Below are positions 18,119 to 64,000 of a DNA stretch of 64,000 nucleotides, one piece after another (the first letter of the stretch is position 1; each line of letters opens with the position of its first letter). Below the pieces are notes generated by a model that was not told the origin of the DNA, did not search any database, and saw only the letters and a list, made by a program, of their open reading frames with translations. Source of the DNA: Felis catus (Eukaryota); assembly GCF_018350175.1 (NCBI RefSeq), contig NC_058368.1:930001-994000 (forward strand). The letters are read 5' to 3'. Made by a program: the position numbers and the translations under genes.

Positions 18119-40842
<22,724 letters not shown>

Positions 40843-41659
40843 GCCAAAGAACCTGTAACAGAGGAAAGTAAATAACAAAAGTTCTAGTATATTATGATCA
40901 TTGTGTTTTATTGCAATGAAATAGCACAAATGAAATTTTAAATTCTGGTGAGTTTTATCCAACCCTCAGGGAAAATATTGTTACTCATTTTGTTTTTCCT
41001 CTCTCATTAACCATTTAATGCCTACCTCAGAGTTTGATGGAAATTAATCATCCAATTTGTAGTAGTCCTTAAAAAATGCACTCATAGTACTCAATTTAAC
41101 TTACCCTTTACAATGAAAAAAAAATCTAAGCCTTCTTTTGAAATAGGAAATAGTAACAAAATCATCCTATCAAATACCAATCACCCAGGATCCAAATACA
41201 ATCACTATACTATACTTTTGTCTACTAAAATAAGTGACTATCATCTAATCCTTATTGCTCTAGCGTCTTTGTCACTGTTTTTCAAATTCTCCGCTTCTAA
41301 CATAACTTTGATTAAATCTTCCTTATCCTTGTCCAGAAATTGCCAGACATTATGCTACGGGTTTTTCATGTAAAATTCTGAAAACAGCTCCATAATATAG
41401 GTATAACTTAATCTACTTTACAAATCAGGAAAGCAAAACCAACTAAATTGTTCTAGGTAAGACTGAGTAGAACTTAAACCCCAGGCCCTAACTCTAGGCC
41501 TCAAATTCTTAGCATTCATTTATATTCAACAAATACTTCTGTGAACCTGCTCTGCACTAGGGTATGACGAAGGAAAGGATCCAGCAGACAGACATAATTG
41601 AAGAATCTGGAAAAGTAAATAACCAATGAAGCAAGGATCTTAAAAGTAGACAGGAGACC

Positions 41660-57259: not shown

Positions 57260-60200
57260 TTATATTTTATTTTATTTTTTTCCTTTTAATTATTTTTTAA
57301 ATTTAAATCCAAGTTAGTAAACATATAGCACTAATAATGGTTTCAGGAATAGAATTTAGTGATTCATCACTTACAGATAACACCCAGTGCTCATTCCAAC
57401 AAGTGCCCTCTTTAATGCCCATAGACCATTTAGCCCATCTACCCGACACCCTGCCAGCAGCCCTCCTTTTTTTCTCCATATTTAAAGGTCTCTTATGGTT
57501 TGTCTCTCTGTTTTTATCTTACTTTTGCTTCCCTTCCCCTATGTTCATCTGTTTTGTTTCTAAAAATTCACATATGAGTGAAATCATATGATATTTGTCT
57601 TTCTCTGACTTATTTTGCTTACCATAATACATTCTAGTTCCATCCACATTGTTGCAAATGAAATAGTTCTATTTTTAATTTTTTGAGGACCCTCTTTACT
57701 GTTTTCCAGAGGGGCTGCACCAGTTCCCATTCCCCCCAGTAGTGCAGAAGGATTCCTCTTTCTCTGCATCCTCGCCAACATCTGTTGTTGACTGAGTTGT
57801 TAATTTTAGCCATTCTGAGAGGGGTGAGGTGGTATCTCGTGGTTTTGACTTGTATTTCCCTGATGATGAGTGATGTTGAGGCTCTTCTCATGTGTCAGTT
57901 GGCCATCTGGATGTCATCTTTGGAGAAGTGTCTATTCATGTCTTTTGCCCAATTCTTCACTGGATTCTTTCATTTTTGGGTGTTGAGTGTGACAAGTTCT
58001 TTATACATTTTGGATACTAACCCTTATCTAATATGAAATTTGCAAATATCTTCTCCAATTCTGTTGATTGCCTTTTAGTTTTGCTGATTATTTCCTTCAC
58101 TGTGCAGAAACTTTTTGTCTTGATGAGGTCCCAATAGTTCATTTTTGCTTTTGTTTCTCCTTGCCTCTGGAGATGTGTTGAATAAGAAGTTACTGTGGCT
58201 TGGCAAAACAAAAACAAAAACAGATACTCAGATCAATGGAACAGAATAGAGAACCCAGAAATGGACCCACAAACATAGAGCCAACTAATCTTTGACAAAG
58301 CAGGCAAGAATATCCAATGGAATAAAGACAGTCTCTTCAGCAATTGGTGCTGGGAAAACTGGACAGTGACATGCAGAAGAATGAACCTGGACCACTTTCT
58401 TACACCATACACAAAAATCATCTCAAAGTGGATGAAAGACCTAAATGTAAGACAGGAAGCCATCAAAATCCTAGAGGAGAAAGCAGGCAAAGACCTCTTT
58501 GATCTTGGCCACAGCAACTTCTTATTCACCACGTCTCCAAAGGCAAGGGAAACAAAAGCAAAAATGAACTACTAGGACCTCATCAAAATAAAAAGATTTT
58601 TCACAGCAAAGGAAATAATCAGCAAAACTAAAAGGCAACCGACGGAATGGGAGAAGATATTTGCAAATAACATATCGGATAAAGGATTAGTATCCAAAAT
58701 CTATAAAGAACTTATCAAACTCAACACCCAGGGAAATACAAATCAAAACCACAATGAGATACAACCTCACCCCTCTCAGAATGGCTAACATTAACAACTC
58801 AGGCAACAACAGATGTTGGCAAGGATGAAGAGAAAGAGGATCTCTTTTTGCACTGCTGGTGGGAATGCAAACTGGTGCAGCCACTCTGGAGAACAGTATG
58901 GAGGTTCTTCAAAAAATTAAAAACAGAACTACTCTATGACCCAGCAATCGCACTACTAGGTATTTATCCAAGGGATACAGGTATGCTGTTTAGAAGGAAC
59001 ACATACACCCCAATGTTTATAGCAGCACTACCAACAATAGCCAAAGTATGAAAAGAACCCAAATGTCCATCGCTGGATGAATGGATAAAGAAGATGTGGT
59101 ATATATATATACAATGGAGTATTACCCAAGAATCAAAAAGAATGAAATCTTGTCATTTGCAACTACATGATGGAACTGGAGGGTATTATGCTAAGCAAAA
59201 TTAGTCAGAGAAAGACAAATATTATATGACCTCACTCATATGAGGACTTTAAGACACAGAACAGATGAACATAAGGGAAGGGAAGCAAGAATAATATAAA
59301 AACAGGGAGGGGACAAAACATAAGAGACTCTTAAATATGGAGAACAAACAGAGGGTTATTGGAAGGGTTGTAGGAGGGGGAACGGGCTAAATGGGTAAGG
59401 GGCCTTAAGGAATCTACTCCTGAAATCATTGTTGCACTATATGCTAACTAATTTGGATGTAAAATAAAACAAAATAAAATAAAATAAAATAAAATAAAAT
59501 AAAATAAAATAAAATGTTATCGTACTAGTATAACAATGGTTGAAAAATTCCCATCTTATTTATATTTTTTGGCAATGCAAAACTTATTTGGGGAGGTTTC
59601 AAAGAGAAAAACAATGTCTAGCATCAGTTTCATTCACTGAATTTTATTGCATTTTGGATATGAAAATTCCTTTCACACTTTTTTCCATCTCAAGAGATTG
59701 TGACTCAGTTTTTCTCCCAGTTTATATAGTTGGAGAACTCTGGAGAACCAGGCATGACTGTGGTTTGAAACACTTTGGTGCAGCACAGTAAAGAAAGCTG
59801 TGCTGAAATGAGAAATAGATGCAAAACCATGATCAGTGTTCAAATACGCCTAATAAAACATGGTACAATATTAAAAAAAAAAAAAGAAGAAGTTGCCACA
59901 GCCAAGGTCAGAGAGGTTGTTGCCTGTTTTCTCCTCTAGGATTTTGATGGCTTCCTTTCTTATGTTTAGGTCTTTCATCCATTTTGAGATTATTTTTGTA
60001 TGTTGTATAAGAAAGTGGTCCAGGTTCATTTTTCTGCATGTCACTGTCAGGTTTTCCCGGTACCACTTGCTGAAGAGACTGTCTTTTTTCCATTGGATAT
60101 TCTTGCCTGCTTTGTCAAAGATTAGTTGGCCATAGGTTTGTGGGTCCATTTCTGGGTTCCATTGATCTAGTGTCTGTTTTTGTGCTAGTCCAATACTGTC

Positions 60201-63200
60201 TCAATGATTATAGCTTTGTTATACAGCTTGAAGTCTGGAATTGTGATGCCTCCAGCTTTGGTTTTCTTTTCCGGATTGCTTTAGTTATTTGGGGTCTTTT
60301 CTGATTCCATACAAATTTTAGGATTGTTGTTCTAGCTCTGTGAAGAATGCTGGTGTTATTTTGATAGGGATTGCATTGAATATGTAGATTGCTTTGGGTA
60401 GTATTGATATTTTAATAATATTTGTTCTTCCAATCCTTGAGGATGTAAGGTTTTTCCATTTTGTTGTGTCTTCTTCAATTTCTTTCATAACCTTTGTCTA
60501 GTTTTCAGTGTATAAGTTTTTCACCTCTTTGGTTAGGTTTATTCTTAGGTATTTTATGGTTTTTGGTGCAATTGTAAATGGGATTGGTTCCTTGATATTT
60601 CTTTCTGCTGCTTCATTATTGGTGTATAGAAATGCAACCAATTTTTGTGTGTTGATTTTATGTCCTGCAACTTTGCTGAATTCATGTATCCATTCCAGCA
60701 GTTTTGGGGTGGAATCTTTTGGGTTTTCCACATAGAATATCATCTTGTTTGCAAAGAGTGAAAGTTTGACTTCCTCCTGGCCAATTTGTGCCTTTTATTT
60801 CTTGCTGTTGTCTGATTGCTGAGGCTAGGACTGCCAACACTATATTGAATAACAGTGGTGAAGAGTGGACATCCCTATTGTGTTCCTAACTTAGGGTGAA
60901 AGCTCTCAGTTTTTTTTTTGAGGATGATGTTAGCTGTGGGTCTTTCATATATAGCCTTTATGATCTTGAGGTATGTTCCTCTATCCCTACTTTCTTGAGG
61001 ATTTTTACCAAGAAAGGATGCTGTATTTTGTCAGATGCTTCTTTTTCTGCATCTATTGAGAGGATCATGTGATTCTTATCCTTTCTTTTATTAATGTGAT
61101 GTATCATGTTGATTGACTTGCAGATATTGAACCAGCCCTGCATCCCAGGCATAAATCCCACTTTATCATGGTGAATAATTCTTTTCATGTATTGTTGGAT
61201 CCAGTTTGTGAGCATCTTGTTGAGAATTTTTGCATCCATGTTTGTCAGGGAAGTTGGTATGTTGTTCTCCTTTTTAGTGGGATCTTTGTCTGGTTTTAGA
61301 ATCAATGTAACGCTAGCCTCATAGAATGAGTTTAGAAGTTTTCCTTCCGTTTCTATTTTTTGGAACAGCTTCAAAAGAATAGGTCTTAACTCTTCTTTAA
61401 ATGTTTGGTAGAATTCCCCCTGGAAAGCCATCTGCCCTGGACATTACTTTGTTGGGAGGTTTTTGATTACTGATTCAATATCTTTCCTGATTAGGGGTCT
61501 GATCAAGTTTTCTGTTTCTTCCTGTTTAAATCTGTTTAAGTCTGGTAGTTTATATGTTTTTAGGAATTTTTCCATTTCTTCCAGATTGCCCAATTTATTG
61601 GCATATAATTCCTCATAATATTCTTTTATTATTTGTATTTCTGCATTGTTGTTTGTTATGTCTCCTCTTTCTTTTATTTTTAATTTTTAATTTTTTATTT
61701 ATTTTTACATTTATTTATTTTTGAGAGACAGAGAGAGACAGAACACAAGAAGGGGAGGGGCAGAGAGAGACAGACACAGAATCTGAAGCAGGCTCCAGGC
61801 TCTGAGCTGACAGCACAGAGCCCAACGCGGGGCTCGAACTCACAAACTGTGAGATCATGACCTGAACCGAAGTCAGACGCTCAACCAGCTGAACCACCCA
61901 GGCGCCCCTGTCTCCTCTTTCATTCGTGATTTTTATTTATTTCTGTCCTTTCCTTTTTCTTTTTGATCAATCTGGCTATGGGTTTATAAATTTTGTTAAT
62001 TCTTTCAAAGAATTAGTTCCTGGTTTTATTGATTGGTTCTACTGTTGTTGTTTTTTTTATTTCGATATCATTGATTTCTGCTCTAATCTTTATTATTTCC
62101 CTTCTGCTGCTGGTTTTTGGTTTTATTTGCTGTTCTTGTTCCAGCTCTTTTAGTCGTAAGGTTAGGTTGTGTAATTGTGTATTGTGTATTTGTGTATCTT
62201 TAGGAAGGCCTGAATTGCTATATACTTCCCTCTTATGACTACCTTTGTTGCATCCCTGAGGTATTGGGCTGTCGTGTTTTCATTTTCATTGGCTTCCATG
62301 TACTTTTTAATTTCCTCTTTAATTTCTTGGTTAAGCCATTCATTCTTCAGTAGGATGTTCTTTAATCTCCAAGTATTCATGGTCTTTCCAAATTTTTTCT
62401 CATGGTAGATTTGAGTTTCACAGTGTTGTGTTTTGAAAAGATGAAAGGTATGATCTTGATCTTTTTGTACTTGTTGAGGGCTGATTTGTGACCCAGTTTG
62501 TGATATATTCTGGACAATTTTCCATGTGCACCGAAGAAGAATGTGCATCCTGCTTCTTTAGGAGGAAATGTTCTGAATACATCTGTTAAGCCCATCCAGT
62601 CCAGTGTGTTATTCAAAGCCACCGTTTCCTTGTTGATTTTCTGCTTAGATGATCTGTCCATTTCTATCAGTGGGGTTTTGAAGTCCCCTACTATTATTAT
62701 GGCATTATTATCAATGAGTTTCTTTATTTTTGTGATTAATTGATTTATGTATTTGTGTGCTCAATGTTGGGGACAGAAATATTTATAGTTGTTAGAAATT
62801 CTTGGTAGATAGACCCCTTAATTATGATATAATGCCCTATTTCATCTCTTGTTACAGTCTTTATTTTAAAGTCTAGTTTGTCTGATATAAGTATGGCTAC
62901 TCCAGCTTTCTTTTGATGACCATTAGCATGATAGATAGTTTTCTATCCCCTTACTTTCAATATGCAAGTGTCTTTAGATCTAAAATGAGTCTCTTGTAAG
63001 CAACATATAGATGGGTCTTCTTTTCTTATCCATTCTGATACCCTGTGTCTTTTGATTGGACCATTTAGTCCATTTACATTTAGAGTGAGTGCTGAAAGAT
63101 ATGAATTTATTGCCATTGTGTTGCCTGTAGAGACGGAGTTTCTGGTGGTATTCTCTGGTCTTTTCTAGTCTTTGTTTCTCTTGGTCTTTTTTGTTTTGTT

Positions 63201-64000
63201 TTGTCTTTTCTGCACTCAAAGTGTCCCCCTTAAAATTTCTTGCAGGGGTGGTTTAGTAGTCACATCTTTAGTTTTTGTTTATCTGGGAAACTCTTTATCT
63301 CTCCTTCTAGTTTGAATGACAGCTTTGCTGGATAAAGAATGCTTGGCTTCATATTTTTCCAGTTCAGCATGTTAAATATATCCTACCACACTTTCTGGCC
63401 TGTCAAGTTTCTGTGGACAGGTCTGCTGTGAACATGATCTGTCTTCTCATATAGGTTAAGGACTTTTTTTTCTTTTGTTGCTTTAATAATTCTTTCCTTG
63501 TCTGTGTGTTTTGTGAATTTGACTATGATATGCCTTGGTAATGGTCGATTTTTGTTGTATCTAATGGGAGTTCTCTGTGCTTGTTAGATTTTGATGTCTG
63601 TGTTCTTCCCCAGATTAGGAAAGTTTTCTGCTATAATTTGTTTACATAAACCTTCTGCCCCCTTCTCACCTTCTTCATCTTCTGGGGCTTCTATGATTCA
63701 GATGTTATTCCTTTTTTTTTTTTTAATGTTTATTTATTTATTTTTGAGAGAGAGAGAGAAAGAGAGGACACAAATAGGGGAAGGGCAGAGAGAGGGAGAT
63801 ACTGAATCTGAAGCAGGCTCCAGGCTTTGAGCCATCAGCACAGAGCTCAATGTGGGGCTCAAACCCATCACCTGTGAGGCTCATGACCTGATCTGAAGTT
63901 GGACGCTTAACTGAGCCACGTAGGCACCCCAGATGTTACTCCTTTTTAATAAGTCACTGAGTTCTCTAAGTCTTGTATTGTGATCTTTGGCCTTTGTTTC
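57260..64000 (-). mobile_element. Long carnivore L1 (3' UTR at ~57260 through ORF2 to ORF1 at the window end), interrupted at 58200-59886
   Basis: Successive ORF2 peptides on the minus strand (57634..57891, 59871..60149, 60498..60743, 60958..61431, 62162..62548, 62377..62661); the sequence resumes at 59887 where it broke off at 58199. Confidence 0.9.
58200..59886 (+). mobile_element. 5'-truncated L1 with 3'-transduced unique sequence, nested in the opposite-strand L1
   Basis: ORF2 C-terminus and 3' UTR 58220-59460, (AAAAT)n tail to 59515, unique 59516-59872 with AATAAA at 59852, second poly-A 59873-59885, degenerate 16-bp TSD. Confidence 0.8.

What the first reader, a model, noticed from the sequence alone, without database searches (positions are those of the whole stretch)
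58184..59902. L1-in-L1 insertion carrying a ~357-bp 3' transduction, with TSDs decayed by opposite-strand CpG mutation
Seen: the minus-strand L1 stops at 58199 and resumes at 59887. Between these points lie a plus-strand L1 3' end with its (AAAAT)n tail (to 59515), then 357 bp of non-L1 sequence (59516-59872) with AATAAA at 59852-59857, then a second poly-A 15 nt later. The flanks are aagaagttactgtggc (58184-58199) and aagaagttgccacagc (59887-59902). Both derive from one 16-mer, aagaagttgccgcggc: two CpG>TpG changes plus one G>A on the left, two CpG>CpA changes on the right. Established: L1 transcripts that read through their weak poly(A) signal copy downstream flank to new loci. Inference: the unique block is a tag from the source L1 locus elsewhere in the genome, now ~8 kb upstream of the ZMYM5 promoter.
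Basis: partly seen in the sequence, partly recalled or inferred. Interest (0 to 1): 0.7.

Follow-up and report, generated by a model that had tools for sequence, protein, structure and literature searches.

The report
Nested L1 carrying a 3' tag
An old LINE-1 jumping gene landed inside another LINE-1 in a cat-family genome and apparently brought 357 bases of neighbouring DNA from its previous home, a real but textbook kind of event.

Summary
The structure is real. A 5'-truncated plus-strand L1 (58200-59515), a 357-bp non-L1 tag with AATAAA and a second poly(A) interrupt a minus-strand L1. The two host halves overlap by 16 nt in L1 register at an endonuclease-type site, and are equally diverged (5.0% vs 5.8%). 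New support for 3' transduction: assembled contigs from two DNA runs of different studies both show a second version of the tag's 5' part with the same 8 differences, too many for an allele. That suggests a source or sibling copy elsewhere. Its flanks and 3' half were not seen, so the source L1 is not shown. The CpG story needs correcting. Among 120 related L1 fragments, 106 have Ser and 2 have Gly at the key codon, so the family has one CpG here, not two. A rough model favours (2-34x) the second CpG arising after duplication, on the right copy only. One opposite-strand CpG decay stands. L1 3' transduction is textbook, documented in dogs, and this scan noted similar L1 cases elsewhere in this genome. 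Ordinary; low interest.

The parts
57277..58199 (-). Host L1, 3' portion (end of ORF2, 3' UTR, tail); carries a deletion of about 215 bp near 57660 relative to the L1 at 27827-29262
58184..58199 (+). Left target-site duplication copy; begins at a degenerate L1 endonuclease site (bottom strand TCTT/AT)
58200..59460 (+). Inserted 5'-truncated L1 (end of ORF2 and 3' UTR); internal deletions of 115 bp after 58728 and 54 bp after 59411, neither with GT-AG ends
59460..59515 (+). First tail, decayed to a 5-nt-period A-rich microsatellite
59516..59872 (+). 357-bp non-L1 tag (34% GC); no match elsewhere in the window, no Rfam or Pfam family, no protein homologue for its longest frame
59521..59642 (+). 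Part of the tag for which a second version (8 differences, all within 59560-59612) is present in contigs of two DNA runs
59852..59857 (+). AATAAA, 15 nt before the terminal poly(A)
59873..59885 (+). Terminal poly(A), 13 A, followed by one G
59887..59902 (+). Right target-site duplication copy (5 of 16 positions differ from the left copy)
59887..64000 (-). Host L1, 5' portion (ORF2 with RT domain at 60961-61443 and endonuclease domain at 62946-63164; two SINE-like insertions); runs out of the window

Best explanation
Partnered L1 3' transduction into an older L1. (1) Inferred: a source L1 elsewhere was transcribed past its own weak poly(A) signal and was cleaved 15 nt after an AATAAA in its downstream flank, 357 nt beyond its tail. 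(2) Inferred from hallmarks seen in the sequence: ORF2p nicked the bottom strand of a resident minus-strand L1 at TCTT/A, primed on the new poly(A), copied tag, tail and about 1.4 kb of L1, and stopped. Second-strand cleavage 16 nt away made the duplication. (3) Seen: both elements then decayed (deletions, microsatellite tail, 5 of 16 differences between the duplication copies). The most likely history of those differences starts from the family state with one CpG, lost on opposite strands in the two copies. A T>C then created, and a G>A destroyed, a second CpG on the right copy alone, and one non-CpG change hit the left copy.
For: 16-nt overlap of the host halves in L1 register, starting at an endonuclease-type site with poly(A) next to the right copy. 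Host halves equally diverged in three-way comparison: host-only changes 14 of 279 sites right of the insert vs 23 of 399 left of it, Fisher p=0.73. The insert has fewer private changes than the host (40 vs 74 of 973 sites, p=0.001; ORF2 only 26 vs 37 of 678, p=0.20), as nesting requires. One AATAAA in the tag, at the expected distance from the terminal poly(A). In 2 of 2 whole-genome-sized runs laid (X1, X7; different studies), a second 113-nt path with the same 8 differences; P(>=8 in 113 nt) is 1e-10 to 2e-5 for heterozygosity 0.2-1%. Its 6.6% divergence (8 of 122 nt) fits about twice the insert's private branch of 3.6-4.7%. Only 4 contigs per DNA run were laid at 80% likeness, so the tag is not a high-copy young repeat. 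Family codon counts in 120 relatives and the likelihood grid for the TSD history.
Against: The source locus itself was not seen: no L1 upstream of the second copy and no flank lacking poly(A) downstream of it. Over 59643-59861 only one path, identical to the window, was laid in both DNA runs. A 6.5%-diverged copy staying identical there has P of about 4e-7, so the second copy either stops matching near 59643, was simplified away, or was withheld by the tool's filter. The contig shared by both paths has about the summed depth in X1 (21.5 vs 9+11.9) but not in X7 (14.6 vs 15.9+6.2). X7 is marked as a possible source of this DNA. Five differences in 16 nt is high: 34 of 1801 16-nt windows between L1 copies in this window reach it. 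No orthologous empty site could be examined (no genome held).
Confidence: 0.8

Rival explanations
1. Bipartite chimera: reverse transcription began on the poly(A) of an unrelated cellular RNA (or a local template) that supplied the 357 bp, then switched to an L1 RNA near its tail; one insertion, one duplication.
For: Gives the same outer anatomy. The second copy's upstream flank was not seen. Earlier scan notes report L1 chimeras with locally copied DNA in this genome (unchecked).
Against: The L1 keeps its complete 3' end and tail directly before the tag, the order expected of read-through. In known U6/L1-type chimeras (recalled) the L1 part is 3'. No second copy lies within this 64-kb window. 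No coding or RNA-family signal in the tag.
Confidence: 0.1
2. Two successive insertions at one site: first an orphan tag with poly(A), later an L1 at its 5' junction.
For: The 16 nt spanning the tail/tag junction (59511-59526) match the left duplication copy at 9 of 16 positions.
Against: Outside the tail the match is 6 of 11, a score reached at 14 of 347 positions along the tag. By contig arithmetic, 59521 onwards is shared with the second genomic copy, so it belongs to the tag and not to a target site.
Confidence: 0.04
3. The two minus-strand halves are different L1 elements joined by rearrangement, and the 16-mers are merely homologous L1 sequence, not a duplication.
For: 5 of 16 mismatches; the left 16-mer is closer to the insert's own copy of this L1 site (1 mismatch) and to the third L1 (2) than to the right 16-mer.
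Against: The overlap is 16 nt, in the usual duplication range, and starts at an endonuclease-type site next to the poly(A). The halves do not differ in divergence (p=0.22, 0.44 and 0.73).
Confidence: 0.03
4. Sub-question only: the host already carried two adjacent CpGs at insertion, and all four copies decayed, both C>T on the left and both G>A on the right.
For: Needs only CpG transitions plus one other change after insertion. CpG loss at the neighbouring Arg codon is common: H, C or Y in 81 of 120 relatives, R in 33.
Against: Needs a private change seen in 2 of 120 relatives, survival of both CpGs until insertion, and four decays in a set pattern. It is 2-34 times less likely than the one-CpG ancestor in all 20 parameter sets tried. 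The model is crude, and the 120 relatives are the best-scoring of 2004, so they lean towards the query's residues.
Confidence: 0.2

Closest known systems
Partnered L1 3' transduction (Moran 1999, Goodier 2000, Pickeral 2000, seen only as reference-list entries; described in passages of PMC13141329, PMC7980453, PMC13756887)
   Same: L1 3' end, tail, unique downstream sequence, second poly(A), one duplication around the whole; tag usable to trace the parent
   Different: An old, decayed, apparently fixed felid-type copy rather than a dimorphic young one; the target is itself an L1; parent not located here
Canine LINE-1 3' transductions, including 'parentless' ones (PMC7980453: 18 among 1,121 dimorphic LINE-1s, 17 not next to an L1; PMC13141329: about 1.8% of loci)
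   Same: Carnivore L1, same mechanism and same test (map the tag back)
   Different: Those are over 95% identical to their source; here the second copy is about 93% identical and only partly seen
Nested retrotransposon insertions (nested LINE-1 and SINE variants in dog assemblies, passage in PMC13756887)
   Same: A younger element interrupting an older one with its own duplication
   Different: Here the duplication lies in L1 ORF2, so the family state of the target can be read from relatives

Membership tests
L1 insertion by target-primed reverse transcription | Target-site duplication flanking the whole insert | tested here: met
   16-nt overlap of the host halves in register with an uninterrupted L1; 11 of 16 identical
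L1 insertion by target-primed reverse transcription | Endonuclease-type site at the nick (consensus TTTTT/AA per PMC13141329) | tested here: met
   Bottom strand reads TCTT/AT, a degenerate match
L1 insertion by target-primed reverse transcription | 3' poly(A) next to the duplication | tested here: met
   13 A and one G before the right copy
Partnered L1 3' transduction | Non-L1 sequence between the L1 tail and a terminal poly(A), with a poly(A) signal | tested here: met
   59516-59872 matches no L1 in the window; AATAAA 15 nt before the poly(A). No repeat library (Dfam/RepeatMasker) was available, so an old repeat is not excluded
Partnered L1 3' transduction | A second genomic copy of the tag | tested here: inconclusive
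   Second version seen for 59521-59642 in 2 of 2 DNA runs laid; not seen for 59643-59861
Partnered L1 3' transduction | The second copy lies directly downstream of a same-strand L1 and lacks the terminal poly(A) | not testable with these tools
   No genome held; contigs break at the tail and no loose ends were listed
Nested insertion in one host L1 | Both halves from one element, older than the insert | tested here: met
   Host-only changes 14/279 vs 23/399 (p=0.73); insert-only 40/973 vs host-only 74/973. The host's own duplication was not checked because its 5' end is outside the window
Nested insertion in one host L1 | Empty site in an outgroup with one copy of the 16-mer | not testable with these tools
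Processed pseudogene or RNA-gene retrocopy | Tag homologous to a coding or structured RNA gene | tested here: not met
   No Pfam hit for 2 of 2 tag frames tried; no candidate for the 85-aa frame among proteins of 46-149 aa; one Rfam hit at E=2.2, 10.1 bits against a cut-off of 95; folding z=-0.97. A pure 3' UTR end is not excluded by these tests

The most novel reading that the evidence does not exclude
The transduced AATAAA lies on the plus strand 8-9 kb beyond the CpG island of a minus-strand gene. It may have been co-opted as the 3' end of a divergent (upstream antisense) transcript from that island: a terminator imported by L1 transduction. Four runs on record as RNA hold 27-70% of the tag's words, and one gives a 212-nt contig identical to this copy at depth 2.4. 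Strand is unknown, DNA carry-over is not excluded, and a single-cell RNA run (about 1 in 100 read) showed one partial read and no pile-up of ends.
Probability: 0.07. Interest if true: 0.4.

Novelty: new member of a known kind. Interest (0 to 1): 0.15.

Why it matters
As a known mechanism it adds one dated example of an L1 3' transduction in a cat-family genome. The tag could be used to find the parent of a long-dead L1. A duplication inside L1 ORF2 is a small teaching case, because the family sequence lets the mutation history of the two copies be tested, and the most parsimonious-looking history turns out not to be the most likely. It opens no long-standing question. It would matter more only if the imported poly(A) signal shapes a transcript from the neighbouring promoter.

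Tried and rejected
Own-genome search for the tag: no genome held. Exact 23-nt tag pattern in JGI metagenome contigs: 0 hits. Degenerate L1-site pattern: 0 hits in viral contigs; 2 hits in metagenome contigs whose flanks do not resemble L1, both dropped. Scan index by sequence and near this place: nothing. Tag as structured RNA: rejected. Tag as coding: no support (only proteins of 46-149 aa were candidates). Second version as an ordinary allele: rejected by density; an allele made by gene conversion from a paralogue would still need a paralogue. Twin-priming inversion: rejected, because the opposite-strand L1 parts overlap the insert fully and are 9-11% diverged from it. The insert's two deletions as splicing: ends are not GT-AG. 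Insert and third L1 as sister copies: not supported, host-only sites do not exceed third-L1-only sites in ORF2 (37 vs 38 of 678). Gene conversion between insert and host: a few shared non-consensus residues, about what chance gives; not pursued. Szak 2003 (PMC156586) is not held.

Full report
Observation. The sequence is as described. A minus-strand L1 runs from its tail near 57277 to 58199 and resumes at 59887, continuing to the window's end. Its right part carries Pfam RVT_1 (60961-61443, E 2e-10) and Exo_endo_phos (62946-63164, E 5e-7); the other 7 of 9 frames scanned had no hit. Between the halves lie a plus-strand L1 3' portion (58200-59460), a 5-nt-period tail to 59515, 357 bp with no other match in the window, a single AATAAA at 59852, 15 nt, 13 A and a G. 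The SINEs and L1s look felid to me (recalled), and an earlier scan note calls the genome cat (unchecked). The name ZMYM5 rests on my recall of the peptide encoded at 40252-40965.

Is the 16-mer a duplication? The window holds an uninterrupted third L1 (27827-29262) covering the same site. Against it, the left host half ends 16 nt past the point where the right half starts. The overlap begins at a bottom-strand TCTT/AT site with the poly(A) beside the right copy. The halves behave as one element: host-only changes are 14 of 279 sites on the right and 23 of 399 on the left (p=0.73). The insert has fewer private changes than the host: 40 vs 74 of 973 sites, p=0.001. Most of that gap comes from the 3' UTR; for ORF2 alone it is 26 vs 37 of 678, p=0.20. 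Against this reading, the two copies differ at 5 of 16 positions, which only 34 of 1801 windows between L1 copies here reach.

The CpG history. I searched with the insert's 98-aa frame over this site: 2004 proteins passed E<=1e-20 among 3332 candidates, and only the best 120 were listed and counted. At the first codon they read H 57, R 33, C 21, Y 3, other 6: the signature of one ancestral CpG. At the second they read S 106 and G 2. The insert's own copy, the third L1 and the left copy also read S. So the family has one CpG here. I compared two histories in a crude model. In the first, the host gained the second CpG before insertion and all four CpG copies then decayed in the observed pattern. 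In the second, the family state was duplicated and the right copy alone gained and lost the second CpG. The second was 2 to 34 times likelier in all 20 parameter sets. The opposite-strand loss of the CpG at positions 13-14 stands in both histories.

Is there a source? No genome is held, so I used public runs. Of 24 listed, 20 hold the tag and 14 hold all sampled words. I laid 4 of the 24 on 59496-59910 at 80% likeness. In both whole-genome-sized runs (X1, X7; different studies; X7 may be the source of this DNA) four contigs were laid. These were a 39-nt piece ending at 59559, two 113-nt paths over 59530-59642, one identical to the window and one with the same 8 differences in both runs, and a 249-nt piece 59613-59861 identical to the window. 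The path ends sit exactly 30 nt from the first and last difference, as for a bubble at word length 31, and the shared piece then starts at 59521. Eight differences in 113 nt is far beyond allelic levels (P 1e-10 to 2e-5 for 0.2-1% heterozygosity). Eight in 122 nt (6.6%) is about twice the insert's private branch of 3.6-4.7%. I read this as a second genomic copy, source or sibling; it is not inside this window.

Limits of that evidence. No second path was laid over 59643-59861. An identical run of that length is not credible for such a copy (P about 4e-7), so it stops matching there, was simplified away, or was filtered out. That the 249-nt contig stops at 59861 in both runs may mark a further branch point near the poly(A) signal, but this is inference. 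Depth of the shared piece matches the sum of the paths in X1 (21.5 vs 20.9) and not in X7 (14.6 vs 22.1). No loose ends or joints were listed, so neither flank was seen.

What the tag is not. Rfam gave one chance-level hit, folding is no better than shuffles (z=-0.97), and the longest frame found no homologue. Only four contigs per DNA run were laid, so it is not a young high-copy repeat. An old repeat or a bare 3' UTR end is not excluded. A third copy of the target site at the tail/tag junction was considered: 6 of 11 matches outside the tail, reached at 14 of 347 tag positions, and the stretch is shared with the second copy.

Expression. One RNA run gave a 212-nt contig identical to this copy at depth 2.4. 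A single-cell run, about 1 in 100 read (12.9 million records), gave one partial read and no pile-up of ends. This shows neither transcription nor use of the signal.

Mechanism and comparison. The best account is read-through of a source L1 into its flank, cleavage after the flank's AATAAA, and target-primed insertion into an older antisense L1, followed by neutral decay. The anatomy and the second copy are shown; read-through and the source's structure are inferred. I read keyword passages (not whole texts, no supplements) of PMC13141329, PMC7980453 and PMC13756887. They describe the same mechanism in dogs: 18 transductions among 1,121 dimorphic LINE-1s, about 1.8% of loci in a later set, and nested LINE-1/SINE variants. 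Their supplements list canine loci and were not opened. Three literature searches, seen as listings only, showed no paper on this locus or on felid transductions among the 20, 15 and 6 titles listed, which does not show absence. The scan's own index lists similar L1 cases in this genome, including one with two 3' transductions 226 kb away (unchecked).

Verdict. A real, ordinary nested L1 insertion with a probable 3' transduction (0.8). The double-CpG refinement is probably wrong in detail. New member of a known kind; interest 0.15.

Noticed in passing
window 27810-29460: The third L1 (minus strand, 27827-29262) has a SINE directly at its 5' end (about 29263-29445, same strand), and one 16-nt direct repeat (15 of 16 identical; 27810-27825 and 29445-29460) flanks the whole SINE+L1 unit. 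Either the L1 inserted into the SINE's A-tail or this is a SINE-L1 chimera.
   Followed up: partly
window 58201 and 29262: The insert and the third L1 are 5'-truncated at the same L1 nucleotide, and both carry the same base change a few codons later, where the host and 5 of 5 relatives covering the site read His. They are otherwise no closer to each other than to the host. Coincidence or a truncation hot spot; unexplained.
   Followed up: partly
window 58190-58225: The 5' junction looks stuttered: short repeats of the L1's first bases and an expanded A-rich unit. The one non-CpG change in the left duplication copy sits where the target resembles the L1 truncation point, so part of the left copy could have been shaped during 5' attachment; the third L1 has the same change independently.
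   Followed up: no
window 59608-59612: Four of the eight differences of the second copy cluster in 5 nt, where the window has an A run and the other version reads like a splice-donor motif; no exon was identified.
   Followed up: no
window 57977-58730 and 58214-60183: Insert and host form inverted repeats 86-88% identical only 0.3-1.4 kb apart, a setting in which the insert's and host's internal deletions (58728, 59411, 57660) may have arisen.
   Followed up: no
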